NCBI RefSeq assembly: GCF_009914755.1
Contig: NC_060933.1
DNA from: the human T2T-CHM13v2.0 reference genome, Homo sapiens
DNA: 64,000 nucleotides
Strand: one strand, 5' to 3'
Shown: in pieces, positions 16,751 to 64,000 of the stretch
Position numbering within the stretch: position 1 is the stretch's first letter
How the letters are laid out: every line of letters begins with the position of its first letter
Translations under genes and position numbers: made by a program
The notes under the pieces: generated by a model
Told to the model about the DNA's origin: nothing
Seen by the model: only the letters and a program-made list of their open reading frames with translations
Databases searched by the model: none

Positions 16751-16770
16751 TTCCATTCCGTGTGCAATGG
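16751..16770. other. Satellite strand-inversion breakpoint
   Basis: ...ttccattccattCCGtgtgcaatggaatgg...: CATTC repeats switch to GGAAT repeats within about 10 bp and no foreign sequence is inserted. ORFs 16537..17025(+) and 16473..17231(-) switch from IPFHS to MEWNG here. Confidence 0.97.
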
Positions 16771-37339: not shown

Positions 37340-39430
37340 TGGAATGCAATGGAATTGAATCAACCCGAGTACAATGGAATGGAATGGAATGGAATGGAAT
37401 GGAATGGAATGATACGGAATAGAATGGAATGGAACGAAATGGAATGGAATGGAATGGAATGGAATGGAATGGAATGGAATGGAATGGAATGGAATCGTTC
37501 CGAGTGGAATAGGAGGGAATGTATTCGAGTGGAATGGAAAGGAATGGTATCAACCAGAGTGGAATGGAAGGGAATGGAATGGAATGGAAACTAATAGAAT
37601 GGAATCAACCCGAGTGGAATGGAATGGAAAGGACTGGAATGGAATGGAATGGAATGGAATCAACTCGATTGTAATGGAATGGAATGGAATGGAATGGAAT
37701 GGAATGGAATGGAATGGAATTAACCCGAGTACAATGGAATGGAATGGAACGGAACGGAATGGAGTGGAATGGAATGGAATCAACCCGAGTGCAGGGGAAT
37801 GGAATGGAATGGAATGCAATGGAATGGAATCATCCGGAATGGAATGGAATGGAATGGAATGCAAAGCAATGGAATCAACTCGATTACAATGGAATGGAAT
37901 GGAATGGAAGGGAATACATTGGAATCAACCCGAGTGGAATGGAATTGAAAGGACTGGAATGGAGTGGAATGGAATGGAATGGAATGGAATGGAATCAACT
38001 CGATTGGAATGGAATGGAATGGAATGGAATGGAATGGAATTAACCCGAATAGAATGGAATGGAATGGAATGGAACGGAACGGAACGGAATGGAATGGAAT
38101 GGAATGGAATGGAATGGAATCAACCCGAATGCAGGGGAATGGAATGGAATGGAATGCAATGGAATGGATTCAACTTGAATGGAATGGAAAGAATGGAATC
38201 AACACGAGTGGAATGGCATGGATTGGAATGGAATGGAATGGAATCAACCCGAGTACAGGGGAATGGAATGGAATGGAATGCAATGGAATGGAATCATCCG
38301 TAATGGAATGGAACGGAATGGAATGGAATGGAATGGAATGGAATAGAATGGAATGGAATCAACTCGATTGCAATGGAATGGAATGGAATGGAATGCAATG
38401 GAATTGAATCAACCTGAGTACAATGGAATGGAATGGAATGGAATGGAATGGAATGGAATGGAATGGAATGGAATGATACGGAATAGAATGGAATGGAACG
38501 AAATGGAATGGAATGGAATGGAATGGAATGGAATGGAATGGAATCGTTCCGAGTGGAATAGGAGGGAATGTATTCGAGTGGAATGGAAAGGAATGGTATC
38601 AACCAGAGTGGAATGGAAGGGAATGGAATGGAATGGAAACTAATAGAATGGAATCAACCCGAGTGGAATGGAATGGAAAGGACTGGAATGGAATGGAATG
38701 GAATGGAATCAACTCGATTGTAATGGAATGGAATGGAATGGAATGGAATGGAATTAACCCGAATAAAATGGAATGGAATGGAATGGAACGGAATGGAGTG
38801 AAATGGAATGGAATCAACCCGAGTGCAGGGGAATGGAATGGAATGGAATGCAATGGAATGGAATCATCCGAAATGGAATGGAATGGAATGGAATGCAAAG
38901 CAATGGAATCAACTCGATTGCAATGGAATGGAATGGAATGGAAAGGAATACATTGGAATCAACCCGAGTGGAATGGAATGGAAAGGACTGGAATGGAGTG
39001 GAATGGAATGGAATGGAATGGAATGGAATGGAATCAACTCGATTGGAAAGGAATGGAATGGAATGGAATGGAATTAACCCGAATAGAATGGAATGGAATG
39101 GAATGGAACGGAACGGAATGGAATGGAATGGAATGGAATGGAATGGAATGGAATGGAATGGAATCAACCCGACTGCAGGGGAATGGAATGGAATGGAATG
39201 CAATGGAATGGATTCAACTTGAATGGAATGGAAAGAATGGAATCAACACGAGTGGAATGGCATGGATTGGAATGGAATGCAATGGAATCAACCCGAGTAC
39301 AGGGGAATGGAATTGAATGGAATGCAATGGAATGGAATCATCCGTAATGGAATGGAATGGAAAGGAATGGAATGGAATGGAATGGAATGGAATAGAATGG
39401 AATGGAATCAACTCGATTGCAATCGAATGG
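37340..39430 (-). repeat. ~1.05-kb tandem duplication
   Basis: ATAGGAGGGAATGTATTCG 37509/38558 and TGGTATCAACCAGAG 37545/38594, both offset 1049. Confidence 0.8.
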
Positions 39431-42400
39431 AATGGAATGGAATTAACCCGAATAGAATGGAATGGAATGGAATGGAACGGAACGGAACGGAATGGAATGG
39501 ATTGGAATGCAATGGAATGGAATGGAATGGAACGGAAAGGAATGGAATGGAATGGAATGGAATGGAATGGAATGGAACGGAATGGAATCAACGCGAGTGC
39601 AGGGGAATGGAATGGAATGGAATGCAATGGAATGGAATCCTCCGGAATGGAATGGAATTGAATGGAACGGAATGGAATAAACCCGAGTGCAATGGAATGG
39701 AGTGGAATGGAATGGAATGGAATGGAACAACCCGAATGGAATGGAATGTAACGGAGAGTAAGGGAGTTGAATAGAATCAATCCAAATGTAATGGAATGGA
39801 ATGGAACGGAATGGAATTGAATGGAATGGAATGGAATGCAATGGAATGGAATCAACCCGAGTGCAATGGAATGGAGAGGAATGGAATGGAATGGAATGGA
39901 AACTACCCTAATGGAATGGAATGTAATGGAGTGTAAGGGAATTGAATAGAATCAATCCGAATGTAATGGAATGGAATGGAAGGGAATGGAATGGAATGGA
40001 ATGGAATGGAATGGAATGGAATGGAATGCAATGGAATGGAATCATCCGGAATGGAATGGAATGGAATGGAATGCAAAGCAATGGAATCAACTCGATTGCA
40101 ATGGAATGGAATGGAATGGAAAGGAATACATTGGAATCAACCCGAGTGGAATGGAATGGAAAGGACTGGAATGGAGTGGAATGGAATGGAATGGAATGGA
40201 ATGGAATCAACTCGACTGGAATGGAATGCAATGGAATGGAATGGAATTAACCCGAATAGAATGGAATGGAATGGAATGGAACGGAACGGAACGGAACGGA
40301 ATGGAATGGAATGGAATGGAATGGAATGGAATGGAATCAACCCGACTGCAGGGGAATGGAATGGAATGGAATGCAATGGAATGGATTCAACTTGAATGGA
40401 ATGGAAAGAATGGAATCAACACGAGTGGAATGGCATGGAATGGACTGGAATGGAATGGAATGGAATGGAATGGTACGGAATAGAATGGAAAGGAACGAAA
40501 TGGAATGGAATGAAATGGAATGGAATGGAATGGAATGGAATGGAATGGAATGGAATCAACCCGAGTGCAGGGGAATGGAATGGAATTGAAGGCAATGGAA
40601 TGGAATCATCCGGAATTGAATGGAATGGAATGGAATCAACTCGATTGCAATGGAATGGAATGGAATGGAATGGAATGGAATGGAATGGAATGGAATGGAA
40701 TGGAATTAACCCGAATAGAATGGAATGGAATGGAATCAACTCGATTGCAATGGAATGGAATGGAATGGAATGGAATGGAATGGAATGGAATGGAATTAAC
40801 CCGAATAGAATGGAATGGAATGGAATGGAATGGAAGTAAAAGGAATGGAAGGTAATGAACCCGAGTGCAGGGGAATGGAATGGAATGGAATGCAATGAAA
40901 TGGAGTCATCCGGAATGGAATGGAAAGGAATGGAATGGAACCAACCCGTGTGCAATGGAATTGAAAGGAATGGAATGGAATGGAATGGAATGGAATGGAA
41001 TGGAATGGAATGGATTCAACCCGAATGGAATGGAAAGGAAGGGAATCAACCCAAGTGGAATGGCATGGAATGGAATGGATTGGAATGGAATGGAATGGTA
41101 CCGAATGGAATGGAATGGAATGGTACCGAATAGAATGGAATGGAACGAAATGGAATGGAATGGAATGGAATGGAATGGAATGGAATGGAGTGAACACGTG
41201 TGCAATGGATTGGAATGGAATGGAATGGAATGGAATGGAATGGAATGGAATGGGTTCGACTCGAATGGAACGGAATGTAATGAAATCAACCCGAGTGGAA
41301 TGGCATGGAATGGAATGGAATGGAATGGAATGGAATGGAATGGAAACAACACGAGTGCAATGTAATGGAATCGAATGGAATGGAATGCAATGGATTCAAC
41401 CCGAATGGAATGGAAACGAATGGAATAAAACCGAGTGGAATGGCATGGAATGGAGTCTAATGGAATGGAATGGAATGGAATGGTATGGAATAGAATGGAA
41501 TGGAAAGAAATGGAATGGAATGGAATGGAATGAAATGAACCCGTGTGCAATGGAATGGAATGGAATGGAATGGATTCAACTCGAATGGAATGGAAAGGAA
41601 TGGAATCAACCCGAGTGGAATGGCATGGAATGGAATGGAATGGAATGGAATTAACCCTAATAGAATGGAATGGAATGGAATGGAATGGAATGGAATGGAA
41701 TGGAAGGAAATGGAATGGAATGGAATGGAATGGAATGGAATGGAATGGAAAGGAATGGTACGGAATAGAATGGAATGGAACGAAATGGAGTGGAATGGAA
41801 TGGAATGGGATGGAATGGAATGGAATGGAATCAACCCGAGTGCAGGGGAATGGAATGGAATGGAAGGCAATGGAATGACATCATTCGGAATTGAATGGAA
41901 TGGAATGGAATGGAATGGAATCAACTCGATTGGAATGGAATGGAATGGAATGGAATGGAATAGAATGGAATGGAATGGAAGTGAATGGAATGGAATGTAA
42001 TGAAACCGAGTGCAGGGGAATGGAATGGAATGGAATGCAATGGAATGGAGTCATCCGGAATGGAACGGAATGGAATGGAATGGAATCAACCCGAGTGCAA
42101 TGGAATGGAATGGAATGGAAAGGAATGGAATGGAATGGACTCAACCCGAATGGAATTGAAAGGAATGGAATCAACCCGAGAGGAATGGCATGGAATGGAA
42201 TGGAATGGAATGGAGTGGAATGGTACAGAATAGAATGTAATGGAACGAAATGGAATGGAATGGAATGGAATGGAATGGAATCATTCCGAGTGGAATAGAA
42301 GGGAATGTTTTCGAGTGGAATGAAAAGGAATGGAATCAACCAGAGTGGAATGGAATGGAATCGAGTGGAATGGAATGCAATCGAATGGAATGGAAAGGAA

Positions 42401-45116
42401 TAGAATGGAATCAACCGGAGTGGAATGGAATGGAAAGGACTGGAATGGAATGGAATGGAATGCAATGGAATCAACTCGATTGCAATGAAATGGAATGGAA
42501 TGGAATGGAATGGAATGGAATTAACCGGAATAGAATGGAATTGAATGGAATGGAAAGGAATGGAATGGAATAGAATGGAATGGAATGGATTCAACTCGAA
42601 TGGAATGGAAAGGAATGGAATCAACCCGAGTGGAATGGCATGGAACGGAATGGAATGGAATGGAATGGAATGGAATTAACCCTAATAGAATGGAATGGAA
42701 TGGAATGGAATGGAATGGAATGGAAGGAAATGGAATGGAATGGAATGGAATGGAATGGAATGGAATGGAATGGAAGGAAATGGAATGGAATGGAATGGAA
42801 TGGAATGGAATGGAATGGAATGGAATGGAAGGAAATGGAATGGAATGGAATGGAATGGAATGGAATGGAATGGAATGGTACGGAATAGAATGGAATGGAA
42901 CGAAATGGAATGGAATGGAATGGAATGGAATGGAATGGAATGGAATGGAAGTGAATGGAATGGAATGTAATGAAACCGAGTGCAGGGGAATGGAATGGAA
43001 TGGAATGCAATGGAATGGAGTCATCCGGAATGGAACGGAATGGAATGGAATGGAATCAACCCGAGTGCAATGGAATGGAATGGAATGGAAAGGAATGGAA
43101 TGGAATGGATTCAACCCGAATGGAATGGAAAGGAATGGAATCAACCCGAGAGGAATGGCATGGAATGGAATGGAATGGAATGGAGTGGAATGGTACGGAA
43201 TAGAATGTAATGGAACGAAACGGAATGGAATGGAATGGAATGGAATGGAATGGAATGGAATCATTCCGAGTGGAATAGAAGGGAATGTTTTCGAGTGGAA
43301 TGAAAAGGAATGGTATCAACCAGAGTGGAATGGAATGGAATCGAATGGAATGGAAAGGAATAGAATGGAATCAACCCGAGTGGAATGGAATGGAAAGGAC
43401 TGGAATGGAATGGAATGGAATGCAATGGAATCAACTCGATTGCAATGAAATGGAATGGAATGGAATGGAATGGAATGGAATGGAATGGAATGGAATAGAA
43501 TGGAAAGGAATCACTCCAAGTGCAGGGGAATTTAATGGAATGGAATGCAGTGGAATGGAATCATCCGGAATGGAATGGAATGGAATGGAATGGAACGGAA
43601 TGGAATGGAATCAACTCGAATTCAATGGAATGGAAAGGAATGGAATGGAATGGAATGCAATGGAATCGTACGGAATAGAATGGAATGGAACGAAATGGAA
43701 TGTAATGGAATGGACTGGAATGGAATGGAATGGAATGGAACGGAATGGAATGGAATGAACCCGCGTGCAATGGAATGGAACGGAATGGAATGGAATGGAA
43801 TGGAATGGAATGGAATGGGTTCAACTCGAATGGAATGGAAAGGAATGGAATCAACACGAGTGGAATGGCATGGAATGGAATGGAATTGAATGAAATGGAA
43901 TGGAATGGAATGGAATGAAATGTAATGGAATGGAAAGGAATGGAATCAACACGAGTGGAATGGCATGGAATGGAATGGAATTGAATGAAATGGAATGGAA
44001 TGGAATGGAATGAAATGTAATGGAATGGAATGGATTGGAATCAACCCGAGTGCAATGTAATGGAATCGAATGGAATGGAATGGAATGGATTCAACCCGAA
44101 TGGAATTAAAAGGAATGGAATATACCCGAGTGGAATGGCATGGAATGGAGTGGAATGGAATGGAATGGAATGGAATGGAATGGAATGGAATGGTACGGAA
44201 TAGAATGGAATGTAACGAAATGGAATGTAAGGGAATGGAATGGAATGGAATGGAATGAACCCGTGTGCAATGGAATGGAATGGAATGGAATGGAATGGAA
44301 TGGAATGGATTCAACTCTAATGGAATGGAAGGGAATGGAATCAACGCGAGTGGAATGGCATGGAATGGAATGGAATGGAATGGAATGGAAGTAAATGGAA
44401 TGGAATGGAATGAACCCGAGTGCAGGGGAATGGAATGGAATGGAATGGAATGGAATGGAATGGAATGGAATTGAATGGAATGGAATGGAATGCAGTGGAA
44501 TGGAATCAAACCTAGTGCAATTGAATGGAATGGAATGGAATGGAATGGAATGGAATGGATTCAACCCAAATGGAATGGAAAGCAATGGAATCAACCCGAG
44601 TGGAATGGCATGGAATGGAATGGAATGGAATGTAATGGAATGGAATGGAATGGAATGGAATGGAATGGAATGGTACGGAATAAAATGGAATGGAACGAAA
44701 TGGAATGGAATGGAACGGATTAGAATGGAATCATTCCGAGTGGAATAGAAGGGAATGAATTCGAGTGGAATGGAAAGGAATGGAATCAACCAGAGTGGAA
44801 TGGAAGGGAATGGAATGGAATGGAAACTAATAAAATGGAATCAACACGAGTGGAATGGAATGGAAAAGACTGGAATGGAAAGGAATGGAATGGAATCAAG
44901 TCGATTGCAATGGAATGTAATGGAATGGAGTGGAATGGAATTAACGCGAATAGAATGGAATGGAATGGAATGGAATGGAATGGAATGGAATGGAATGGAA
45001 TGGAATCAACCTGAGTGCAGGGGAATAGAATGCAATGGAATGCAATGGAATGGAATGGAATGGAATGGAATCAACGCGAGTGCAGGGGAATGGAATGTAA
45101 TGGAATGCAATGGAAT

Positions 45117-45131
45117 GGAATCTTCCGGAAT
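45117..45131. promoter_or_regulatory. Perfect three-unit heat-shock element (nGAAnnTTCnnGAAn), representative of about 21 copies
   Basis: gGAAtcTTCcgGAAt matches the canonical HSF1 HSE. Other copies lie near 114, 748, 22927, 23691, 25405, 27838, 28707, 30155, 32897, 34125, 35903, 36796, 45979, 46852, 52182, 53045, 58505, 59358, 61468 and 61833. The match is seen in the sequence; binding is not shown. Confidence 0.5.
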
Positions 45132-46851
45132 GGAATGGAATGGAATGGAATCAACCCGAGTGCAATGGAATGGAGTGGAATGGAATGGAATGGAATTGAA
45201 CAACCCGAATGCAATCGAATGTAATGGAGAGTAAGGGAGTTGAATAGAATCAATCCGAATGTAATGGAATGGAATGGAACGGAATGGAATTGAATGGTAT
45301 GGAATGGAATGCAATGGAATGGAATCAACCCGAGTGCAATGGAATGGAGAGGAATGGAATGGAAACTACCCGAATGGAATGGAATGTAATGGAGTGTAAG
45401 GGAATTGAATAGAATCAATCTGAATGTAATGAAATGGAATGGAACGGAAAGGAATGGAATGGAATGGAATGGAATGGAATGGAATGCAATGGAATGGAAT
45501 CAACCCGAGTGCAATCGAATGGAATCGAATGTAATGGAATGCAATGGAATGGATTCAACTTGAATGGAATGGAAAGAATGGAATCAATACGAGAGGAATG
45601 GCATGGATTGGAATGGAATGGAATGGAATCAACCCGAGTACAGGGGAATGGAATGGAATGGAATGCAATGGAATGGAATCATCCGTAATGTAATGGAAAG
45701 GAATGGAATGGAATGGAATGGAATGGAATGGAATGGAATGGAATGGAATCAACTCGATTGCAATCGAATGGAATGGAATGGAATTAACCCAAATAGAATG
45801 GAATGGAATGGAATGGAATGGAACGGAAAGGAATGGAATGGAATGGAATGGAATAGAATGGAATGGAACGGAACGGAATGGAACGGAATGGAATGGAATG
45901 GAATGGAATGGAATGGAATGGAATGGAATCAACGCGAGTGCAGGGGAATGTAATGTAATGGAATGCAATGGAATGGAATCTTCCGGAATGGAATGGAATG
46001 GAATGGAATCAACCCGAGTGCAATGGAATGGAGTGGAATGGAATGGAATGGAATTGAACAACCCGAATGCAATCGAATGTAATGGAGAGTAAGGGAGTTG
46101 AATAGAATCAATCCGAATGTAATGGAATGGAATGGAACGGAATGGAATTGAATGGTATGGAATGGAATGCAATGGAATGGAATCAACCCGAGTGCAATGG
46201 AATGGAGAGGAATGGAATGGAAACTACCCGAATGGAATGGAATGTAATGGAGTGTAAGGGAATTGAATAGAATCAATCCGAATGTAATGGAATGGAATGG
46301 AACGGAATGGAATGGAATGGAATGGAATGGAATGGAATGGAATGGAATGGAATGGAATACAATGGAATGGAATCAACCCGAGTGCAATCGAATGGAATCG
46401 AAAGTAATGGAATGCAATGGAATGGATTCAACTTGAATGGAATGGAAAGAATGGAATCAATACGAGTGGAATGGCATGGATTGGAATGGAATGGAATGGA
46501 ATCAACCCGAGTACAGGGGAATGGAATGGAATGGAATGCAATGGAATGGAATCATCCGTAATGTAATGGAAAGGAATGGAATGGAATGGAATGGAATGGA
46601 ATGGAATGGAATGGAATCAACTCGATTGCAGTCGAATGGAATGGAATGGAATTAACCCAAATAGAATGGAATGGAATGGAATGGAATGGAACGGAAAGGA
46701 ATGGAATGGAATGGAATGGAATAGAATGGAATGGAACGGAACGGAACGGAACGGAATGGAATGGAATGGAATGGAATGGAATGGAATGGAATGGAATGGA
46801 ATCAACGCGAGTGCAGGGGAATGGAATGGAATGGAATGCAATGGAATGGAA
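45121..46851 (-). repeat. Tandem duplication of a ~860-bp module (858 + 873 bp)
   Basis: TCTTCCGG anchors at 45121, 45979 and 46852. CAACCCGAATGCAATCG at 45201 and 46059 (858 apart). The ORF translations 45071..45418 and 45929..46276 are nearly identical. Confidence 0.9.
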
Positions 46852-47085
46852 TCTTCCGGAATGGAATGGAATGGAATGGAATGGCATGAAATGCAATGGA
46901 TTCAACTCGATTGCAATGGAATGGAATAGAATGGAATGGAATGGAATGGAATGGAATTAACCCGAATAGAATGGAATGGAATGGAATGGAACGGAATGGA
47001 ACGGAACGGAATGGAACGGAATGGAATGGAATGGAATGGAATGGAATGGAATGGAATGGAATGGTATGGAGTGGAATGGAATGGA

Positions 47086-50000
47086 ATCAACACGAGTGCA
47101 GTGTAATGGAATCGAATGGAATGGAATGGAATGGAATGGATTCAACACGAATGGAATGGAAAGGAATGGAATAAACCCGCGTGGAATGGCATGGAATGGA
47201 GTGGAATGGAATGGAATGGAATGGAATGGAATCAACCCGAGTGCAATGTAATGGAATGGAATGGAATGGAATGGAATGGAATGGATTCAACCCGAATGGA
47301 ATGGAAAGGAATGGAATAATCCCGAGTGGAATGGCATGAAGTGGAGTGGAATGGAATGGAATGGAATGGAATGGTACGGAATAGAATGGAATGGAACGAA
47401 ATGGAATGGAATGGAATGGAATGGAATGAACCCGTGTGCAATGGAATGGAATCGAATGGAATGGAATGGATTGGAATGGATTCAACTCGAATGGAATGGA
47501 AAGGAATGGAATCAACCCGAGTGGAATGGCATGGAATGGAATGGAATGGAATGGAATGGAATGGAATGGAATGGTACGGAATAGAATGGAAAGGAACGAA
47601 ATGGAATGGAATGAAATGGAATGGAATGGAATGGAATGGAATGGAATGGAATGGAATGGAATCAACCCGAGTGCAGGGGAATGGAATGGAATTGAAGGCA
47701 ATGGAATGGAATCATCCGGAATTGAATGGAATGGAATGGAATCAACTCGATTGCAATGGAATGGAATGGAATGGAATGGAATGGAATGGAATGGAATGGA
47801 ATTAACCAGAATAGAATGGAATGGAATGGAATGGAAGTAAATGGAATGGAAGGTAATGAACCCGAGTGCAGGGGAATGGAATGGAATGGAATGCAATGAA
47901 ATGGAGTCATCCGGAATGGAACGGAAAGGAATGGAATGGAACCAACCCGTGTGCAATGGAATTGAAAGGAATGGAATTGAATGGAATGGAATGGAATGGA
48001 ATGGAATGGAATGGAATGGAATGGAATGGAATGGATTCAACCCGAATGGAATGGAAAGGAAGGGAATCAACCCAAGTGGAATGGCATGGAATGGAATGGA
48101 TTGGAATGGAATGGAATGGTACCGAATGGAATGGAATGGAATGGTACCGAATAGAATGGAATGGAACGAAATGGAACGGAATGGAATGGAATGGAATGGA
48201 ATGGAGTGAACACGTGTGCAATGGATTGGAATGGAATGGAATGGAATGGAATGGAATGGAATGGGTTCGACTCGAATGGAACGGAATGTAATGAAATCAA
48301 CCCGAGTGGAATGGCATGGAATGGAATGGAATGGAATGGAATGGAATGGAATGGAAACAACACGAGTGCAATGTAATGGAATCGAATGGAATGGAATGCA
48401 ATGGATTCAACCCGAATGGAATGGAAACGAATGGAATAAAACCGAGTGGAATGGCATGGAATGGAGTCTAATGGAATGGAATGGAATGGAATGGTATGGA
48501 ATAGAATGGAATGGAACGAAATGGAATGGAATGGAATGGAATGAAATGAACCCGTGTGCAATGGAATGGAATGGAATGGAATGGAATGGAATGGATTCAA
48601 CTCGAATGGAATGGAAAGGAATGGAATCAACCCGAGTGGAATGGCATGGAATGGAATGGAATGGAATGGAATTAACCCTAATAGAATGGAATGGAATGGA
48701 ATGGAATGGAATGGAATGGAATGGAAGGAAATGGAATGGAATGGAATGGAATGGAATGGAATGGAATGGAATGGTACGGAATAGAATGGAATGGAACGAA
48801 ATGGAATGGAATGGAATGGAATGGGATGGAATGGAATGGAATGGAATCAACCCGAGTGCAGGGGAATGGAATGGAATGGAAGGCAATGGAATGACATCAT
48901 TCGGAATTGAATGGAATGGAATGGAATGGAATGGAATCAACTCGATTGGAATGGAATGGAATGGAATGGAATGGAATGGAATGGAATGGAATGGAATGGA
49001 AGTGAATGGAATGGAATGTAATGAAACCGAGTGCAGGGGAATGGAATGGAATGGAATGCAATGGAATGGAGTCATCCGGAATGGAACGGAATGGAATGGA
49101 ATGGAATCAACCCGAGTGCAATGGAATGGAATGGAATGGAAAGGAATGGAATGGAATGGACTCAACCCGAATGGAATGGAAAGGAATGGAATCAACCCGA
49201 GAGGAATGGCATGGAATGGAATGGAATGGAATGGAGTGGAATGGTACAGAATAGAATGTAATGGAACGAAATGGAATGGAATGGAATGGAATGGAATGGA
49301 ATCATTCCGAGTGGAATAGAAGGGAATGTTTTCGAGTGGAATGAAAAGGAATGGAATCAACCAGAGTGGAATGGAATGGAATCGAGTGGAATGGAATGCA
49401 ATCGAATGGAATGGAAAGGAATAGAATGGAATCAACCCGAGTGGAATGGAATGGAAAGGACTGGAATGGAATGGAATGGAATGCAATGGAATCAACTCGA
49501 TTGCAATGAAATGGAATGGAATGGAATGGAATGGAATGGAATTAACCGGAATAGAATGGAATTGAATGGAATGGAAAGGAATGGAATGGAATAGAATGGA
49601 ATGGAATGGATTCAACTCGAATGGAATGGAAAGGAATGGAATCAACCCGAGTGGAATGGCATGGAACGGAATGGAATGGAATGGAATGGAATGGAATTAA
49701 CCCTAATAGAATGGAATGGAATGGAATGGAATGGAATGGAATGGAATGGAATGGAAGGAAATGGAATGGAATGGAATGGAATGGAATGGAATGGAATGGA
49801 AGGAAATGGAATGGAATGGAATGGAATGGAATGGAATGGAATGGAAGGAAATGGAATGGAATGGAATGGAATGGAAAGGAATGGAATGGAATGGAATGGA
49901 AGGAAATGGAATGGAATGGAATGGAATGGAATGGAATGGAATGGAATGGTACGGAATAGAATGGAATGGAACGAAATGGAATGGAATGGAATGGAATGGA

Positions 50001-53000
50001 ATGGAATGGAATGGAATGGAAGTGAATGGAATGGAATGTAATGAAACCGAGTGCAGGGGAATGGAATGGAATGGAATGCAATGGAATGGAGTCATCCGGA
50101 ATGGAACGGAATGGAATGGAATGGAATCAACCCGAGTGCAATGGAATGGAATGGAATGGAAAGGAATGGAATGGAATGGATTCAACCCGAATGGAATGGA
50201 AAGGAATGGAATCAACCCGAGAGGAATGGCATGGAATGGAATGGAATGGAATGGAGTGGAATGGTACGGAATAGAATGTAATGGAACGAAACGGAATGGA
50301 ATGGAATGGAATGGAATGGAATGGAATGGAATCATTCCGAGTGGAATAGAAGGGAATGTTTTCGAGTGGAATGAAAAGGAATGGTATCAACCAGAGTGGA
50401 ATGGAATGGAATCGAATGGAATGGAAAGGAATAGAATGGAATCAACCCGAGTGGAATGGAATGGAAAGGACTGGAATGGAATGGAATGGAATGCAATGGA
50501 ATCAACACGATTGCAATGAAATGGAATGGAATGGAATGGAATGGAATGGAATGGAATGGAATAGAATGGAAAGGAATCACTCCAAGTGCAGGGGAATTTA
50601 ATGGAATGGAATGCAGTGGAATGGAATCATCCGGAATGGAATGGAATGGAATGGAATGGAACGGAATGGAATGGAATCAACTCGAATTCAATGGAATGGA
50701 AAGGAATGGAATGGAATGGAATGCAATGGAATCGTACGGAATAGAATGGAATGGAACGAAATGGAATGTAATGGAATGGAATGGAATGGAATGGAATGGA
50801 ACGGAATGGAATGGAATGAACCCGCGTGCAATGGAATGGAACGGAATGGAATGGAATGGAATGGAATGGAATGGAATGGGTTCAACTCGAATGGAATGGA
50901 AAGGAATGGAATCAACACGAGTGGAATGGCATGGAATGGAATGGAATTGAATGAAATGGAATGGAATGGAATGGAATGAAATGTAATGGAATGGAAAGGA
51001 ATGGAATCAACACGAGTGGAATGGCATGGAATGGAATGGAATTGAATGAAATGGAATGGAATGGAATGGAATGAAATGTAATGGAATGGAATGGAATGGA
51101 ATCAACCCGAGTGCAATGTAATGGAATCGAATGGAATGGAATGGAATGGATTCAACCCGAATGGAATTAAAAGGAATGGAATATACCCGAGTGGAATGGC
51201 ATGGAATGGAGTGGAATGGAATGGAATGGAATGGAATGGAATGGTACGGAATAGAATGGAATGTAACGAAATGGAATGTAAGGGAATGGAATGGAATGGA
51301 ATGGAATGAACCCGTGTGCAATGGAATGGAATGGAATGGAATGGAATGGAATGGAATGGATTCAACTCTAATGGAATGGAAGGGAATGGAATCAACGCGA
51401 GTGGAATGGCATGGAATGGAATGGAATGGAATGGAATGGAAGTAAATGGAATGGAATGGAATGAACCCGAGTGCAGGGGAATGGAATGGAATGGAATGGA
51501 ATGGAATGGAATGGAATTGAATGGAATGGAATGGAATGCAGTGGAATGGAATCAAACCTAGTGCAATTGAATGGAATGGAATGGAATGGAATGGAATGGA
51601 ATGGAATGGAATGGAATGGATTCAACCCAAATGGAATGGAAAGCAATGGAATCAACCCGAGTGGAATGGCATGGAATGGAATGGAATGGAATGTAATGGA
51701 ATGGAATGGAATGGAATGGAATGGTACGGAATAAAATGGAATGGAACGAAATGGAATGGAATGGAACGGAATAGAATGGAATGATTCCGAGTGGAATAGA
51801 AGGGAATGAATTCGAGTGGAATGGAAAGGAATGGAATCAACCAGAGTGGAATGGAAGGGAATGGAATGGAATGGAAACTAATAAAATGGAATCAACACGA
51901 GTGGAATGGAATGGAAAGGACTTGAATGGAATGGAATGGAATGGAATGGAATCAAGTCGATTGCAATGGAATGTAATGGAATGGAGTGGAATGGAATTAA
52001 CGCGAATAGAATGGAATGGAATGGAATGGAATGGAATGGAATGGAATGGAATGGAATGGAATGGAATCAACCTGAGTGCAGGGGAATGGAATGCAATGGA
52101 ATGCAATGGAATGGAATGGAATGGAATGGAATCAACGCGAGTGCAGGGGAATGGAATGTAATGGAATGCAATGGAATGGAATCTTCCGGAATGGAATGGA
52201 ATGGAATGGAATCAACCCGAGTGCAATGGAATGGAGTGGAATGGAATGGAATGGAATTGAACAACACGAATGCAATCGAATGTAATGGAGAGTAAGGGAG
52301 TTGAATAGAATCAATCCGAATGTAATGGAATGGAATGGAACGGAATGGAATTGAATGGTATGGAATGGAATGCAATGGAATGGAATCAACCCGAGTGCAA
52401 TGGAATGGAGAGGAATGGAGTGGAAACTACCCGAATGGAATGGAATGTAATGGAGTGTAAGGGAATTGAATAGAATCAATCCGAATGTAATGGAATGGAA
52501 TGGAACGGAATGGAATGGAATGGAATGGAATGGAATGGAATGGAATGGAATACAATGGAATGGAATCAACCCGAGTGCAATCGAATGGAATCGAATGTAA
52601 TGGAATGCAATGGAATGGATTCAACTTGAATGGAATGGAAAGAATGGAATCAATACGAGTGGAATGGCATGGATTGGAATGGAATGGAATGGAATCAACC
52701 CGAGTACAGGGGAATGGAATGGAATGGAATGCAATGGAATGGAATCATCCGTAATGTAATGGAAAGGAATGGAATGGAATGGAATGGAATGGAATGGAAT
52801 GGAATGGAATGGAATCAACTCGATTGCAGTCGAATGGAATGGAATGGAATTAACCCAAATAGAATGGAATGGAATGGAATGGAATGGAACGGAAAGGAAT
52901 GGAATGGAATGGAATGGAATAGAATGGAATGGAACGGAACGGAATGGAACGGAATGGAATGGAATGGAATGGAATGGAATGGAATGGAATGGAATCAACG

Positions 53001-53248
53001 CGAGTGCAGGGGAATGGAATGGAATGGAATGCAATGGAATGGAATCTTCCGGAATGGAATGGAATGGAATGGAATGGCATGAAATGCAATGGATTCAACT
53101 CGATTGCAATGGAATGGAATGGAATGGAATGGAATGGAATGGAATGGAATTAACCCGAATAGAATGGAATGGAATGGAATGGAACGGAATGGAACGGAAT
53201 GGAATGGAATGGAATGGAATGGAATGGTATGGAGTGGAATGGAATGGA
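47086..53248 (-). repeat. ~6.15-kb HOR, copy B (6163 bp)
   Basis: Unit start ATCAACACGAGTGCAGTGTAAT at 47086 recurs at 53249. Internal markers at 48263, 48464, 48893 and 50577 are in the same order as in the other copies. Confidence 0.9.
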
Positions 53249-56200
53249 ATCAACACGAGTGCAGTGTAATGGAATCGAATGGAATGGAATGGAATGGAAT
53301 GGATTCAACACGAATGGAATGGAAAGGAATGGAATAAACCCGCGTGGAATGGCATGGAATGGAGTGGAATGGAATGGAATGGAATGGAATGGAATCAACC
53401 CGAGTGCAATGTAATGGAATCGAATGGAATGGAATGGAATGGAATGGATTCAACCCGAATGGAATGGAAAGGAATGGAATAATCCCGAGTGGAATGGCAT
53501 GAAGTGGAGTGGAATGGAATGGAATGGAATGGAATGGAATGGTACGGAATAGAATGGAATGGAACGAAATGGAATGGAATGGAATGGAATGGAATGGAAT
53601 GGAATGGAATGAACCCGTGTGCAATGGAATGGAATCGAATGGAATGGAATGGATTGGAATGGATTCAACTCGAATGGAATGGAAAGGAATGGAATGAACA
53701 CGAGTGGAATGGCATGGAATGGAATGGAATGGAATGGAATGGAATGGAATGGTACGGAATAGAATGGAAAGGAACGAAATGGAATGGAATGAAATGGAAT
53801 GGAATGGAATGGAATGGAATGGAATGGAATCAACCCGAGTGCAGGGGAATGGAATGGAATTGAAGGCAATGGAATGGAATCATCCGGAATTGAATGGAAT
53901 GGAATGGAATCAACTCGATTGCAATGGAATGGAATGGAATGGAATGGAATGGAATGGAATGGAATGGAATGGAATGGAATGGAATTAACCCGAATAGAAT
54001 GGAATGGAATGGAATGGAAGTAAATGGAATGGAAGGTAATGAACCCGAGTGCAGGGGAATGGAATGGAATGGAATGCAATGAAATGGAGTCATCCGGAAT
54101 GGAACGGAAAGGAATGGAATGGAACCAACCCGTGTGCAATGGAATTGAAAGGAATGGAATGGAATGGAATGGAATGGAATGGAATGGAATGGAATGGATT
54201 CAACCCGAATGGAATGGAAAGGAAGGGAATCAACCCAAGTGGAATGGCATGGAATGGAATGGATTGGAATGGAATGGAATGGTACCGAATGGAATGGAAT
54301 GGAATGGTACCGAATAGAATGGAATGGAACGAAATGGAACGGAATGGAATGGAATGGAATGGAATGGAGTGAACACGTGTGCAATGGATTGGAATGGAAT
54401 GGAATGGAATGGAATGGAATGGAATGGGTTCGACTCGAATGGAACGGAATGTAATGAAATCAACCCGAGTGGAATGGCATGGAATGGAATGGAATGGAAT
54501 GGAATGGAATGGAAACAACACGAGTGCAATGTAATGGAATCGAATGGAATGGAATGCAATGGATTCAACCCGAATGGAATGGAAACGAATGGAATAAAAC
54601 CGAGTGGAATGGCATGGAATGGAGTCTAATGGAATGGAATGGAATGGAATGGTATGGAATAGAATGGAATGGAACGAAATGGAATGGAATGGAATGGAAT
54701 GAAATGAACCCGTGTGCAATGGAATGGAATGGAATGGAATGGAATGGAATGGATTCAACTCGAATGGAATGGAAAGGAATGGAATCAACCCGAGTGGAAT
54801 GGCATGGAATGGAATGGAATGGAATGGAATTAACCCTAATAGAATGGAATGGAATGGAATGGAATGGAATGGAATGGAAGGAAATGGAATGGAATGGAAT
54901 GGAATGGAATGGAATGGAATGGAATGGTACGGAATAGAATGGAATGGAACGAAATGGAATGGAATGGAATGGAATGGGATGGAATGGAATGGAATGGAAT
55001 CAACCCGAGTGCAGGGGAATGGAATGGAATGGAAGGCAATGGAATGACATCATTCGGAATTGAATGGAATGGAATGGAATGGAACGAAATGGAATGGAAT
55101 GGAATGGAATGGGATGGAATGGAATGGAATGGAATCAACCCGAGTGCAGGGGAATGGAATGGAATGGAAGGCAATGGAATGACATCATTCGGAATTGAAT
55201 GGAATGGAATGGAATGGAATGGAATCAACACGATTGGAATGGAATGGAATGGAATGGAATGGAATGGAATGGAATGGAATGGAAGTGAATGGAATGGAAT
55301 GGAATGAAACCGAGTGCAGGGGAATGGAATGGAATGGAATGCAATGGAATGGAGTCATCCGGAATGGAACGGAATGGAATGGAATGGAATCAACCCGAGT
55401 GCAATGGAATGGAATGGAATGGAAAGGAATGGAATGGAATGGACTCAACCCGAATGGAATGGAAAGGAATGGAATCAACCCGAGAGGAATGGCATGGAAT
55501 GGAATGGAATGGAATGGAGTGGAATGGTACAGAATAGAATGTAATGGAACGAAATGGAATGGAATGGAATGGAATGGAATGGAATCATTCCGAGTGGAAT
55601 AGAAGGGAATGTTTTCGAGTGGAATGAAAAGGAATGGAATCAACCAGAGTGGAATGGAATGGAATCGAGTGGAATGGAATGCAATCGAATGGAATGGAAA
55701 GGAATAGAATGGAATCAACCCGAGTGGAATGGAATGGAAAGGACTGGAATGGAATGGAATGGAATGCAATGGAATCAACTCGATTGCAATGAAATGGAAT
55801 GGAATGGAATGGAATGGAATGGAATTAACCGGAATAGAATGGAATTGAATGGAATGGAAAGGAATGGAATGGAATAGAATGGAATGGAATGGATTCAACT
55901 CGAATGGAATGGAAAGGAATGGAATCAACCCGAGTGGAATGGCATGGAACGGAATGGAATGGAATGGAATGGAATGGAATTAACCCTAATAGAATGGAAT
56001 GGAATGGAATGGAATGGAATGGAATGGAATGGAATGGAAGGAAATGGAATGGAATGGAACGGAATGGAATGGAATGGAATGGAATGGAATGGAAGGAAAT
56101 GGAATGGAATGGAATGGAATGGAATGGAATGGAATGGAATGGAAGGAAATGGAATGGAATGGAATGGAATGGAATGGAATGGAATGGAATGGAATGGAAG

Positions 56201-59200
56201 GAAATGGAATGTAATGGAATGGAATGGAATGGAATGGAATGGAATGGAATGGTACGGAATAGAATGGAATGGAACGAAATGGAATGGAATGGAATGGAAT
56301 GGAATGGAATGGAATGGAATGGAAGTGAATGGAATGGAATGTAATGAAACCGAGTGCAGGGGAATGGAATGGAATGGAATGCAATGGAATGGAGTCATCC
56401 GGAATGGAACGGAATGGAATGGAATGGAATCAACCCGAGTGCAATGGAATGGAATGGAATGGAAAGGAATGGAATGGAATGGATTCAACCCGAATGGAAT
56501 GGAAAGGAATGGAATCAACCCGAGAGGAATGGCATGGAATGGAATGGAATGGAATGGAGTGGAATGGTACGGAATAGAATGTAATGGAACGAAACGGAAT
56601 GGAATGGAATGGAATGGAATGGAATGGAATGGAATCATTCCGAGTGGAATAGAAGGGAATGTTTTCGAGTGGAATGAAAAGGAATGGTATCAACCAGAGT
56701 GGAATGGAATGGAATCGAATGGAATGGAAAGGAATAGAATGGAATCAACCCGAGTGGAATGGAATGGAAAGGACTGGAATGGAATGGAATGGAATGCAAT
56801 GGAATCAACTCGATTGCAATGAAATGGAATGGAATGGAAGGGAATGGAATGGAATGGAATGGAATGGAATAGAATGGAAAGGAATCACTCCAAGTGCAGG
56901 GGAATTTAATGGAATGGAATGCAGTGGAATGGAATCATCCGGAATGGAATGGAATGGAATGGAATGGAACGGAATGGAATGGAATCAACTCGAATTCAAT
57001 GGAATGGAAAGGAATGGAATGGAATAGAATGCAATGGAATCGTACGGAATAGAATGGAATGGAACGAAATGGAATGTAATGGAATGGAATGGAATGGAAT
57101 GGAATGGAATGGAACGGAATGGAATGGAATGAACCCGCGTGCAATGGAATGGAACGGAATGGAATGGAATGGAATGGAATGGAATGGAATGGGTTCAACT
57201 CGAATGGAATGGAAAGGAATGGAATCAACACGAGTGGAATGGCATGGAATGGAATGGAATTGAATGAAATGGAATGGAATGGAATGGAATGAAATGTAAT
57301 GGAATGGAAAGGAATGGAATCAACACGAGTGGAATGGCATGGAATGGAATGGAATTGAATGAAATGGAATGGAATGGAATGGAATGAAATGTAATGGAAT
57401 GGAATGGAATGGAATCAACCCGAGTGCAATGTAATGGAATCGAATGGAATGGAATGGAATGGATTCAACCCGAATGGAATTAAAAGGAATGGAATATACC
57501 CGAGTGGAATGGCATGGAATGGAGTGGAATGGAATGGAATGGAATGGAATGGAATGGTACGGAATAGAATGGAATGTAACGAAATGGAATGTAAGGGAAT
57601 GGAATGGAATGGAATGGAATGAACCCGTGTGCAATGGAATGGAATGGAATGGAATGGAATGGAATGGAATGGAATGGATTCAACTCTAATGGAATGGAAG
57701 GGAATGGAATCAACGCGAGTGGAATGGCATGGAATGGAATGGAATGGAATGGAATGGAAGTAAATGGAATGGAATGGAATGAACCCGAGTGCAGGGGAAT
57801 GGAATGGAATGGAATGGAATGGAATGGAATGGAATTGAATGGAATGGAATGGAATGCAGTGGAATGGAATCAAACCTAGTGCAATTGAATGGAATGGAAT
57901 GGAATGGAATGGAATGGAATGGAATGGAATGGAATGGATTCAACCCAAATGGAATGGAAAGCAATGGAATCAACCCGAGTGGAATGGCATGGAATGGAAT
58001 GGAATGGAATGTAATGGAATGGAATGGAATGGAATGGAATGGTACGGAATAAAATGGAATGGAACGAAATGGAATGGAATGGAACGGAATAGAATGGAAT
58101 CATTCCGAGTGGAATAGAAGGGAATGAATTCGAGTGGAATGGAAAGGAATGGAATCAACCAGAGTGGAATGGAAGGGAATGGAATGGAATGGAAACTAAT
58201 AAAATGGAATCAACACGAGTGGAATGGAATGGAAAGGACTTGAATGGAATGGAATGGAATGGAATGGAATCAAGTCGATTGCAATGGAATGTAATGGAAT
58301 GGAGTGGAATGGAATTAACGCGAATAGAATGGAATGGAATGGAATGGAATGGAATGGAATGGAATGGAATGGAATGGAATGGAATGGAATCAACCTGAGT
58401 GCAGGGGAATGGAATGCAATGGAATGCAATGGAATGGAATGGAATGGAATGGAATCAACGCGAGTGCAGGGGAATGGAATGTAATGGAATGCAATGGAAT
58501 GGAATCTTCCGGAATGGAATGGAATGGAATGGAATCAACCCGAGTGCAATGGAATGGAGTGGAATGGAATGGAATGGAATTGAACAACACGAATGCAATC
58601 GAATGTAATGGAGAGTAAGGGAGTTGAATAGAATCAATCCGAATGTAATGGAATGGAATGGAACGGAATGGAATTGAATGGTATGGAATGGAATGCAATG
58701 GAATGGAATCAACCCGAGTGCAATGGAATGGAGAGGAATGGAGTGGAAACTACCCGAATGGAATGGAATGTAATGGAGTGTAAGGGAATTGAATAGAATC
58801 AATCCGAATGTAATGGAATGGAATGGAACGGAATGGAATGGAATGGAATGGAATGGAATGGAATACAATGGAATGGAATCAACCCGAGTGCAATCGAATG
58901 GAATCGAATGTAATGGAATGCAATGGAATGGATTCAACTTGAATGGAATGGAAAGAATGGAATCAATACGAGTGGAATGGCATGGATTGGAATGGAATGG
59001 AATGGAATCAACCCGAGTACAGGGGAATGGAATGGAATGGAATGCAATGGAATGGAATCATCCGTAATGTAATGGAAAGGAATGGAATGGAATGGAATGG
59101 AATGGAATGGAATGGAATGGAATGGAATCAACTCGATTGCAGTCGAATGGAATGGAATGGAATTAACCCAAATAGAATGGAATGGAATGGAATGGAATGG

Positions 59201-59561
59201 AACGGAAAGGAATGGAATGGAATGGAATGGAATAGAATGGAATGGAACGGAACGGAATGGAACGGAATGGAATGGAATGGAATGGAATGGAATGGAATGG
59301 AATGGAATCAACGCGAGTGCAGGGGAATGGAATGGAATGGAATGCAATGGAATGGAATCTTCCGGAATGGAATGGAATGGAATGGAATGGCATGAAATGC
59401 AATGGATTCAACTCGATTGCAATGGAATGGAATGGAATGGAATGGAATGGAATGGAATGGAATTAACCCGAATAGAATGGAATGGAATGGAATGGAACGG
59501 AATGGAACGGAATGGAATGGAATGGAATGGAATGGAATGGTATGGAGTGGAATGGAATGGA
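53249..59561 (-). repeat. ~6.15-kb HOR, copy C (6313 bp, includes a 135-bp internal duplication)
   Basis: The start marker at 53249 recurs at 59562. Markers at 54426, 54622, 55046+55181 and 56885. Confidence 0.9.
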
Positions 59562-62500
59562 ATCAACACGAGTGCAGTGTAATGGAATCGAATGGAATGG
59601 AATGGAATGTAATGGATTCAACACGAATGGAATGGAAAGGAATGGAATAAACCCGCGTGGAATGGCATGGAATGGAGTGGAATGGAATGGAATGGAATGG
59701 AATGGAATCAACCCGAGTGCAATGTAATGGAATCGAATGGAATGGAATGGAATGGAATGGATTCAACCCGAATGGAATGGAAAGGAATGGAATAATCCCG
59801 AGTGGAATGGCATGAAGTGGAGTGGAATGGAATGGAATGGAATGGAATGGAATGGTACGGAATAGAATGGAATGGAACGAAATGGAATGGAATGGAATGG
59901 AATGGAATGGAATGGAATGGAATGGAATGAACCCGTGTGCAATGGAATGGAATCGAATGGAATGGAATGGATTGGAATGGATTCAACTCGAATAGAATGG
60001 AAAGGAATGGAATGAACACGAGTGGAATGGCATGGAATGGAATGGAATGGAATGGAATGGAATGGAATGGTACGGAATAGAATGGAAAGGAACGAAATGG
60101 AATGGAATGAAATGGAATGGAATGGAATGGAATGGAATGGAATGGAATCAACCCGAGTGCAGGGGAATGGAATGGAATTGAAGGCAATGGAATGGAATCA
60201 TCCGGAATTGAATGGAATGGAATGGAATCAACTCGATTGCAATGGAATGGAATGGAATGGAATGGAATGGAATGGAATGGAATGGAATGGAATGGAATGG
60301 AATTAACCCGAATAGAATGGAATGGAATGGAATGGAAGTAAATGGAATGGAAGGTAATGAACCCGAGTGCAGGGGAATGGAATGGAATGGAATGCAATGA
60401 AATGGAGTCATCCGGAATGGAACGGAAAGGAATGGAATGGAACCAACCCGTGTGCAATGGAATTGAAAGGAATGGAATGGAATGGAATGGAATGGAATGG
60501 AATGGAATGGAATGGAATGGAATGGATTCAACCCGAATGGAATGGAAAGGAAGGGAATCAACCCAAGTGGAATGGCATGGAATGGAATGGATTGGAATGG
60601 AATGGAATGGTACCGAATGGAATGGAATGGAATGGTACCGAATAGAATGGAATGGAACGAAATGGAACGGAATGGAATGGAATGGAATGGAATGGAGTGA
60701 ACACGTGTGCAATGGATTGGAATGGAATGGAATGGAATGGAATGGAATGGAATGGGTTCGACTCGAATGGAACGGAATGTAATGAAATCAACCCGAGTGG
60801 AATGGCATGGAATGGAATGGAATGGAATGGAATGGAATGGAAACAACACGAGTGCAATGTAATGGAATCGAATGGAATGGAATGCAATGGATTCAACCCG
60901 AATGGAATGGAAACGAATGGAATAAAACCGAGTGGAATGGCATGGAATGGAGTCTAATGGAATGGAATGGAATGGAATGGTATGGAATAGAATGGAATGG
61001 AACGAAATGGAATGGAATGGAATGGAATGAAATGAACCCGTGTGCAATGGAATGGAATGGAATGGAATGGAATGGAATGGATTCAACTCGAATGGAATGG
61101 AAAGGAATGGAATCAACCCGAGTGGAATGGCATGGAATGGAATGGAATGGAATGGAATTAACCCTAATAGAATGGAATGGAATGGAATGGAATGGAATGG
61201 AATGGAAGGAAATGGAATGAAATGGAATGGAATGGAATGGAATGGAATGGAATGGTACGGAATAGAATGGAATGGAACGAAATGGAATGGAATGGAATGG
61301 AATGGGATGGAATGGAATGGAATGGAATCAACCCGAGTGCAGGGGAATGGAATGGAATGGAAGGCAATGGAATGACATCATTCGGAATTGAATGGAATGG
61401 AATGGAATGGAATGGAATCAACGCGAGTGCAGGGGAATGAAATGGAATGGAATGCAATGGAATGGAATCTTCCGGAATGGAATGGAATGGAATGGAATAG
61501 AATGGAATGGAATGGAATGGAATGGAATCAACCCGAGTACAGGGGAATGGAATGGAATGTAATGTAATGGAATGGAATCATCCGTAATGGAATGGAAAGC
61601 AATGGAATGGAATGGAATGGAATGGAATGGAATGGAATCAACTGGATTGCAATCGAATGGAATGGAATGGAATTAACCCGAATAGAATGGAATGGAATGG
61701 AACGGAACGGAACGGAATGGAATGGAATGGAATGGAACGGAACGGAATAGAATGGAATGGAATGGAATGGAATGGAATGGAATCAACGCGAGTGCAGGGG
61801 AATGGAATGGAATGGAATGCAGTGGAATGGAATCTTCCGGAATGGAATGGAATGGAATGCAATGGATTCAACTCGATTGCAATGGAATGGAATAGAATGG
61901 AATGGAATGGAATGGAATGGAATTAACCCGAATAAAATGGAATGGAATGGAATGGAACGGAACGGAACGGAACGGAACGGAATGGAATGGAATGGAATGG
62001 AATGGAATGGTATGGAATGGAATGGAATGGTACGGAATAGAATGGAATGGAAAGAATTGGAATGGAATGGAATCGAATGGAATGGAATGGAATGGAATGG
62101 AATCAACCCGAGTGCAGGGGAATGTAATGGAACGCAATGTAATGGAATGGAATCATCCGGAATGGAATGGAATGGAATGGAATGGAATGGAATGGAATGG
62201 AACCAACTCGATTGTGATGGAATGGAATGGAATGGAATGGAATGGAATGGAATGGAATTAACCCGAATACAACGGAATGGAATGGAATGGAACGGAATGG
62301 AGTGGAATGGAATGGAATCAACCCGAGTGCAGGGGAATGGAATGGAATGGAATGCAATGGAACGGAATCATCCGGAATGGAATGGAATGGAATGGAATGC
62401 AAAGCAATGGAATCAACTCGATTGCAATGGAATGGAATGGAATGGAAAGGAATACATTGGAATCAACCCGAGTGGAATGGAATGGAAAGGACTGGAATGG

Positions 62501-64000
62501 AGTGGAATGGAATGGAATGGAATGGAATGGAATCAACTCGATTGGAATGGAATGGAATGGAATGGAATGGAATGGAATGGAATGGAATTAACCCGAATAG
62601 AATGGAATGGAATGGAATGGAATGGAACGGAATGGAATGGAATGGAATGGAATGGAATGGAATGGAAACAACCCGACTGCAGGGGAATGGATTCAACCCA
62701 AATGGAATGGAAAGCAATGGAATCAACCCGAGTGGAATGGCATGGAATGGAATGGAATGGAATGGAATGGAATGGAATGGAATGGAATGGTACGGAATAG
62801 AATGGAATGGAACGAAATGGAATGGAATGGAATGGAATGGAATGGAATGGAAGTGAATGGAATGGAATGTAATGAAACCGAGTGCAGGGGAATGGAATGG
62901 AATGGAATGCAATGGAATGGAGTCATCCGGAATGGAACGGAATGGAATGGAATGGAATCAACCCGAGTGCAATGGAATGGAATGGAATGGAAAGGAATGG
63001 AATGGAATGGATTCAACCCGAATGGAATGGAAAGGAATGGAATCAACCCGAGAGGAATGGCATGGAATGGAATGGAATGGAATGGAGTGGAATGGTACGG
63101 AATAGAATGTAATGGAACGAAACGGAATGGAATGGAATGGAATGGAATGGAATCATTCCGAGTGGAATAGAAGGGAATGTTTTCGAGTGGAATGAAAAGG
63201 AATGGTATCAACCAGAGTGGAATGGAATGGAATCGAATGGAATGGAAAGGAATAGAATGGAATCAACCCGAGTGGAATGGAATGGAAAGGACTGGAATGG
63301 AATGGAATGGAATGCAATGGAATCAACTCGATTGCAATGAAATGGAATGGAATGGAATGGAATGGAATGGAATGGAATGGAATGGAATAGAATGGAAAGG
63401 AATCACTCCAAGTGCAGGGGAATTTAATGGAATGGAATGCAGTGGAATGGAATCATCCGGAATGGAATGGAATAGAATGGAATGGAACGGAATGGAATGG
63501 AATCAACTCGAATTCAATGGAATGGAAAGGAATGGAATGGAATGGAATGCAATGGAATCGTACGGAATAGAATGGAATGGAACGAAATGGAATGTAATGG
63601 AATGGACTGGAATGGAATGGAATGGAATGGAACGGAATGGAATGGAATGAACCCGCGTGCAATGGAATGGAACGGAATGGAATGGAATGGAATGGAATGG
63701 AATGGAATGGGTTCAACTCGAATGGAATGGAAAGGAATGGAATCAACACGAGTGGAATGGCATGGAATGGAATGGAATTGAATGAAATGGAATGGAATGG
63801 AATGGAATGAAATGTAATGGAATGGAAAGGAATGGAATCAACACGAGTGGAATGGCATGGAATGGAATGGAATTGAATGAAATGGAATGGAATGGAATGG
63901 AATGAAATGTAATGGAATGGAATGGAATGGAATCAACCCGAGTGCAATGTAATGGAATCGAATGGAATGGAATGGAATGGATTCAACCCGAATGGAATTA
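59562..64000 (-). repeat. ~6.15-kb HOR, copy D (interrupted at ~61.4-62.8 kb, cut by the window edge)
   Basis: Markers at 60754, 60950 and 61374, then foreign wording, then HOR markers resume (GTGAATGG..TGAAACCGAG ~62852, TCACTCCAAG 63403). Confidence 0.85.

What the first reader, a model, noticed from the sequence alone, without database searches (positions are those of the whole stretch)
40420..64000. Hidden ~6.15-kb higher-order repeat in an apparently simple pentamer satellite
Seen: rare words recur in fixed order. GAGTCTAATGG at 41453, 48464, 54622, 60950. GGGTTCGACTCG at 41252, 48263, 54426, 60754. TCACTCCAAG at 43511, 50577, 56885, 63403. ATAAACCCGCG at 47171, 53334, 59647. Spacings are about 6.16 kb, about 6.31-6.33 kb (with the 135-bp duplication) and about 7.01 kb (with the extra 858-bp module). 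Established: HSat3 periodicities include ~3.6 kb (DYZ1) and ~1.8 kb (D15Z1). I do not recognise this unit, but cannot say it is undescribed. Near-identical copies imply a recent local expansion.
Basis: partly seen in the sequence, partly recalled or inferred. Interest (0 to 1): 0.75.

Follow-up and report, generated by a model that had tools for sequence, protein, structure and literature searches.

The report
Local 6.2-kb repeat in chr9 satellite
Inside the giant five-letter satellite of human chromosome 9, a 6.2-kb block is repeated twelve times in a row and recurs in seven other clusters on the same chromosome; it is an ordinary example of a known kind of satellite sub-repeat, likely made by unequal recombination, and shows no sign of a special function.

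Summary
7,961 of 23,551 31-mers recur at 6.0-7.1 kb, against at most 1,207 in shuffles.

The array is larger than reported: window 40,842 to chr9:68,186,943, about 70 kb and 12 core copies, plus a solo partial copy at 18,293-22,933. The unit is built of irregular 30-520-bp modules, so it is a nested tandem repeat (NTR) of HSat3B5, not a true higher-order repeat.

It is not only local. A unit-specific 25-mer has 54 exact hits, all on chr9, in 8 clusters: four versions of one module (3, 4, 4 or 12 tandem copies plus a solo), each present twice. The twin 10.62 Mb upstream differs by 2 SNVs and 3 five-base indels in 25 kb, matching the published 9qh+ duplication of CHM13.

Likely order: four-copy module, dispersal in both orientations, expansion here to 12, megabase duplication. 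Unequal exchange is inferred. HSF1 and TEAD motifs are not enriched.

Hyper-local HSat NTRs are published. I found this unit in no paper read, but the key supplementary figure was unavailable. New member of a known kind; low interest.

The parts
40842..47842 (+). NTR unit 1 (7,001 bp), with an ~858-bp internal tandem duplication (extra block about 45,885-46,757)
47843..54025 (+). NTR unit 2 (6,183 bp), plain form
54026..60343 (+). NTR unit 3 (6,318 bp), with a 135-bp internal duplication near 55,000-55,220; used as the reference unit
60344..64000 (+). NTR unit 4 (6,513 bp, ends at window-equivalent 66,856). The array goes on to window-equivalent 110,943 (chr9:68,186,943), 12 core copies in all
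61400..62680 (+). Variant segment of unit 4 (boundaries approximate): other HSat3 sequence replaces part of the unit's left half. The same segment marks the second unit of the 62.8-Mb and 68.3-Mb clusters
40420..40841 (+). Lead-in: partial match to the end of the unit (40,462-40,664); the same lead-in precedes the other two clusters read
18293..22933 (+). Solo partial copy of the unit (about 4.6 kb); every cluster has one 21.6-28.6 kb upstream of its array
22934..40419 (+). Spacer of other HSat3 sequence between solo and array; part of the duplicated module (largely collinear with the module 170 kb downstream)
16754..16769 (.). Strand switch (CATTC to GGAAT) upstream of the module. The same junction recurs reverse-complemented at chr9:68,259,620 (300 of 300 bases exact)

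Best explanation
This is a local nested tandem repeat of the chr9 HSat3B5 satellite: a ~6.2-kb mosaic of irregular pentamer modules, repeated 12 times over 70 kb, likely amplified neutrally by unequal (out-of-register) homologous exchange. Shown: the unit, its copy numbers, eight chr9 clusters, and nested duplications at 135 bp, 858 bp, ~1.03 kb, 6.2 kb, 16.8 kb, a module of about 50 kb or more plus its array, and 8.8-10.6 Mb. Inferred order: (1) older HSat3B5 pieces were joined into one unit; (2) a short array, likely four copies with a variant second unit, formed ~22 kb behind a solo copy; (3) that module was copied to four places, two inverted; (4) this copy grew to 12, partly by doubling a three-unit 16.8-kb block, while another shrank to 3; (5) the region was doubled by the recent CHM13 9qh+ megabase duplication. 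Five-base slippage continues throughout.
For: Census: 54 of 54 exact hits of a 25-mer are on chr9, in 8 clusters that pair at offsets of 8.76 and 10.62-10.63 Mb. The clusters read at 62.8 Mb (minus) and 68.3 Mb (plus) have the same four-unit layout (intervals 6567/6182/6058 and 6548/6180/6027), the variant segment in the same interval, and the same ends as this array. One SNV is shared only by the three last units, one by two second units, one by two first units, and five only by the two solos read. Divergence falls in the inferred order: module vs module 78 SNVs in 18,569 bp; units 2-3, 8 in 6,138; doubled trimer, 2 SNVs plus 15 simple indels and 2 complex events in ~17 kb; megabase twin, 2 SNVs plus 3 indels in 25,000. 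846 of 902 pairwise indels are multiples of 5 (not independent events). The same nested pattern in chrY HSat3 is attributed to unequal exchange.
Against: No recombination event was observed; one haploid assembly cannot separate unequal exchange from replication-based duplication. Plain units do not sort cleanly by position. Interval A2-3 is as close to C3-4 (21 SNVs) as to C2-3 (25), and C3-4 is closer to B6-7 (7) than to B11-12 (18), so conversion or crossover blurs the history. Four of eight clusters were read as sequence (one for 25 kb only); the other four, including both three-copy clusters, rest on marker spacings. Step (1) was not resolved to breakpoints.
Confidence: 0.8

Rival explanations
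1. Same anatomy, but the copies were added by replication-based repair (break-induced replication or template switching) rather than by crossover.
For: Dispersed and inverted module copies, a flipped ~3.7-kb junction segment and a swapped segment in unit 4 need more than simple in-register slippage. That template switching can produce these is from my own knowledge.
Against: Changes are whole units or whole modules in pentamer phase (632 of 656 module lengths are multiples of 5), as expected from homology-guided exchange. This does not exclude homology-guided replication.
Confidence: 0.12
2. The array, or its 10.6-Mb twin, is an assembly artefact from traversing a repeat graph too often.
For: The published assembly traverses this loop twice and shares nodes between the traversals, so twin identity could be overstated.
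Against: Neighbouring units differ by SNVs and many indels. The twin carries its own 5 differences in 25 kb. The duplication fits the CHM13 9qh+ karyotype and doubled coverage. CHM13's chr9 centromeric region is 40.25 Mb against means of 25.4 and 28.1 Mb in two population sets.
Confidence: 0.03
3. The unit was selected as a functional element, for example a denser HSF1 or TEAD platform or a SatIII transcription unit.
For: Chr9 HSat3 binds HSF1 and TEAD1 as a whole (passages). Each unit has about two perfect three-part heat-shock-element matches (0.36 per kb).
Against: Motif density is not higher than in flanks. HSE-like matches are 0.36 per kb against 0.12-0.81 in five flanking regions (four higher); TEAD-like matches are 4.8 against 5.7-8.1 (all five higher); CpG is similar. 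Copy number ranges from 3 to 12. No gene is annotated (hub table). The family is about 1.2% of the array. Motif patterns were recalled, not taken from a database.
Confidence: 0.03
4. It is a true higher-order repeat of a discrete intermediate monomer, like alpha-satellite HORs.
For: A recurring landmark motif opens 59 modules per unit, and module lengths of 30 and 55 bp are each seen 7 times.
Against: Module lengths run 30-520 bp, mean 107, SD 73. TRF finds no period between 5 and 500 at score 300.
Confidence: 0.02

Closest known systems
HSat2/3 nested tandem repeats, including hyper-local NTRs (Altemose et al., bioRxiv 10.1101/2021.07.12.452052; passages read)
   Same: Multi-kb unit built on a diverged (CATTC)n; period varies along one array; found by k-mer spacing.
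   Different: This 6.2-kb period is not named in the main-text passages read. Fig. S10, which shows windowed periods, could not be seen.
DYZ1/HSat3A6 3.6-kb NTR on chrY (Rhie et al., bioRxiv 10.1101/2022.12.01.518724; passages read)
   Same: HSat3 NTR overlaid by iterative megabase tandem duplications attributed to unequal exchange.
   Different: DYZ1 is the dominant unit of its array. This unit is about 0.3 Mb (1.2%) of the chr9 array, in 8 small clusters on both strands, with unit lengths of 4.2-7.1 kb.
HSat3B5 array of 9q12 and the CHM13 9qh+ duplication (PMC4022460; PMC9186530; passages read)
   Same: Same locus and subfamily. The 10.62-Mb twin fits the published recent multi-megabase tandem duplication; many strand switches.
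   Different: The passages read give no unit, module or order of events at this scale.
Alpha-satellite HORs
   Same: Copies of the long unit are far more alike than the parts within it; gains and losses are in whole units (passages).
   Different: No discrete monomer of fixed length; no evidence of a centromere role.

Membership tests
HSat3, subfamily B5 | Diverged (CATTC/GGAAT)n backbone | tested here: met
   TRF period 5, 74% matches; about 115 GGAAT per kb
HSat3, subfamily B5 | Representative B5 24-mer of PMC4022460 Table 1 | tested here: met
   18 hits in the window, 1 in unit 3, 108 in 264 kb; B4, A5 and A6 24-mers 0. 4 of the 10 HSat3 24-mers shown were tested
HSat3, subfamily B5 | Full k-mer classifier of the cenSat pipeline | not testable with these tools
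   classifier and annotation track not available
Nested tandem repeat (NTR) | Multi-kb tandem period above chance in k-mer spacings | tested here: met
Nested tandem repeat (NTR) | Unit not made of discrete monomers of similar length | tested here: met
   modules 30-520 bp
Higher-order repeat (strict) | Discrete number of monomers of similar length | tested here: not met
Array-wide HSat period (DYZ1-like) | Unit dominates the array | tested here: not met
   54 marker hits, about 0.32 Mb of 27.6 Mb. Exact-match census, so diverged copies could be missed
CHM13 9qh+ multi-megabase duplication | Near-identical twin several Mb away in the chr9 HSat3 array | tested here: met
   2 SNVs and 3 indels in 25 kb at 10.62 Mb; marker clusters pair over megabases
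CHM13 9qh+ multi-megabase duplication | Coordinates match the published duplication | not testable with these tools
   coordinates are not in the passages read; supplements not consulted

The most novel reading that the evidence does not exclude
The chr9 HSat3 array, usually treated as lacking a consistent unit, is a datable patchwork of dispersing, inverting modules of tens of kb, each carrying its own small NTR. This unit is an unmapped VNTR-like locus (3/4/4/12 copies) with a chr9-specific marker that could genotype 9qh size, and many of the array's >200 strand switches are copies of a few junctions rather than separate inversions.
Probability: 0.45. Interest if true: 0.45.

Novelty: new member of a known kind. 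Interest (0 to 1): 0.25.

Why it matters
It matters modestly. The chr9 HSat3 block is the largest satellite array in the human genome, and its inner structure is thinly described in the papers I could read. This unit gives a worked case in which five rounds of duplication can be put in order. It also gives a chr9-specific marker for measuring copy-number change and the 9qh+ duplication across haplotypes. It suggests no new function or mechanism.

Tried and rejected
Chance or low complexity: rejected by the module shuffle and the adjacent control.

True HOR: rejected.

Array-wide period: rejected by the census. A second, 32-base marker has 74 hits, all on chr9, of which 32 lie outside the 8 clusters with other spacings. 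The unit's parts are shared with other local repeats.

Function by motif enrichment: not supported. The longest stop-free frames in unit 3 were 139-319 codons with no null computed, so I draw nothing from them; no protein searches were made.

The first twin comparison was anchored on the wrong seed match and was discarded; one search repeats it.

Absolute dating is uninformative. With the rates in PMC12240836 (1.17e-8 to 3.86e-7; passages) the twin is about 3-100 thousand years old and the module split about 0.16-5 million years (29-year generation assumed; 4 SNVs assumed for the trimer).

Literature: 8 searches gave no paper naming this unit. Passages were read in 12 papers; none was read whole. 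The Science version of the centromere paper and the 2022 HSat review are not held, bioRxiv supplements are closed, and no PMC supplements were opened. Prior annotation is therefore not excluded.

Full report
Observation. The window is HSat3, on the CATTC strand up to about 16,750 and on the GGAAT strand after it. In 40,420-64,000, 7,961 of 23,551 31-mers recur 6.0-7.1 kb back. Fifty module shuffles give at most 1,207, and the adjacent 23.6 kb gives 169. TRF reports only the pentamer, so the period is hidden from routine annotation.

Anatomy. Taking 54,026-60,343 as reference, the window holds units of 7,001, 6,183, 6,318 and 6,513 bp. Units 2 and 3 differ by 8 SNVs in 6,138 aligned bases; units 1 and 2 by 27 in 6,033. 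Unit 4 differs from unit 3 at 105 sites, 88 of them in one ~1.3-kb stretch replaced by other HSat3. The unit is a string of 59 landmark-led modules. Over the array the 656 modules run 30-520 bp and 96% are multiples of five. That is a nested tandem repeat as defined in the T2T centromere preprint, not a higher-order repeat. The HSat3B5 24-mer occurs 18 times in the window; three other subfamily 24-mers tested occur 0 times.

Extent. With 200 kb of downstream DNA, the array ends at chr9:68,186,943. It has 12 core copies in 70 kb, including two 4.19-kb short forms. A three-unit block of 16.8 kb is doubled, with 19 differences in ~17 kb, only 2 of them single SNVs. A solo partial copy lies at 18,293-22,933, 22 kb upstream. 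About 170 kb downstream the arrangement repeats: solo, spacer, then only four units.

Genome census. A 25-mer from the unit core has 54 exact hits, all on chr9, in eight clusters. These are 54.04 and 62.81 Mb (minus strand, 4 tandem + 1 solo), 57.48 and 68.10 Mb (plus, 12 + 1), 57.65 and 68.27 Mb (plus, 4 + 1), and 58.93 and 69.57 Mb (minus, 3 + 1). The family is roughly 0.32 Mb, 1.2% of the 27.6-Mb array. A second marker also hits 32 places outside these clusters, so the unit is a mosaic of parts used elsewhere in the array.

The twin. The cluster 10.62 Mb upstream has the same 11 spacings but for one 5-base change. Over 25 kb it differs by 2 SNVs and three 5-base indels. [quoted passage not shown] In line with this, CHM13's chr9 centromeric region is much longer than population means. 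It has over 200 strand switches, against about 129 per haplotype in a pangenome set.

History (inferred). The two four-copy clusters read have the same intervals (6567/6182/6058 and 6548/6180/6027), the variant segment in the first interval, and the same ends as the 12-copy array. Last units share a private SNV across all three clusters, and the two solos read share five. So a four-copy module likely came first, was copied to four places in both orientations, grew here to 12, and was then doubled with the megabase block. Divergence is ordered accordingly: 0.42% between modules, 0.13% between inner units, about 0.01-0.02% for the doubled trimer, 0.008% for the twin. Against a clean tree, plain inner units do not sort by position, and C3-4 is only 7 SNVs from B6-7, which points to conversion or a younger split of those two modules. 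Four clusters were not read as sequence. Absolute ages span thirty-fold with the rate chosen.

Mechanism. Unequal homologous exchange between misaligned copies, with pentamer slippage on top, is the most likely cause (0.8). It is inferred from whole-unit, in-phase changes (846 of 902 pairwise indels are multiples of 5) and by analogy with chrY HSat3. Replication-based duplication cannot be excluded (0.12). An assembly artefact is unlikely (0.03). Nothing suggests function: HSE-like and TEAD-like motifs are no denser than in flanking HSat3 (patterns recalled).

Novelty. NTRs in HSat2/3, including periods that change along one array, are published. The 264 kb examined hold other local periods (8.3, 4.7, 2.9, 1.3 and 33 kb), so this unit is one of many. 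Eight searches and passages of 12 papers did not name it. The Science paper, its Fig. S10 and the 2022 review were not available, so it may already be plotted there. Verdict: real, a new member of a known kind, interest 0.25.

Noticed in passing
window 13,934-17,657 vs chr9:68,258,732-68,262,585 (L012-L013): A ~3.7-kb segment holding the strand switch at 16,754 recurs reverse-complemented in the downstream module (junction 300 of 300 bases exact), while the DNA after it is in direct orientation. One junction, flipped between two module copies.
   Followed up: partly
chr9:68,204,041-68,225,744 vs 68,236,456-68,258,684 (L007-L012): A ~33-kb-offset direct duplication includes a strand switch; the two junctions are identical over 600 of 600 bases. 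Of 5 switches in 264 kb, 4 form two pairs of copies.
   Followed up: partly
chr9:52.5-54.1 vs 61.2-62.85 Mb, and 54.7 Mb onward vs 65.3 Mb onward (marker hits only): The offset between duplicated halves steps from about 8.75 to about 10.6 Mb. Marker hits at 64.4-65.1 Mb have no partner, suggesting about 1.85 Mb present in only one copy.
   Followed up: no
chr9:68,276,900-68,292,700 (L014-L016): An 8.3-kb tandem duplication in the spacer of the downstream module, absent from the window's spacer.
   Followed up: partly
window 24,052-31,005 and 37,323-39,423: Older local duplications in the spacer at offsets of about 4.74 kb and 1,049 bp, 97-99% identical.
   Followed up: no
twin and doubled-trimer comparisons: Five-base indels outnumber SNVs in the youngest duplicates (3 vs 2 in 25 kb; 15 vs 2 in 17 kb), so pentamer slippage may be the faster clock here. 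Assembly error in pentamer runs was not excluded.
   Followed up: no
chr9:53.32, 57.09, 62.04, 67.71 and 74.07 Mb (marker hits only): Other small clusters share the left part of the unit with different spacings (2.4-8.3 kb), likely sister NTRs.
   Followed up: no
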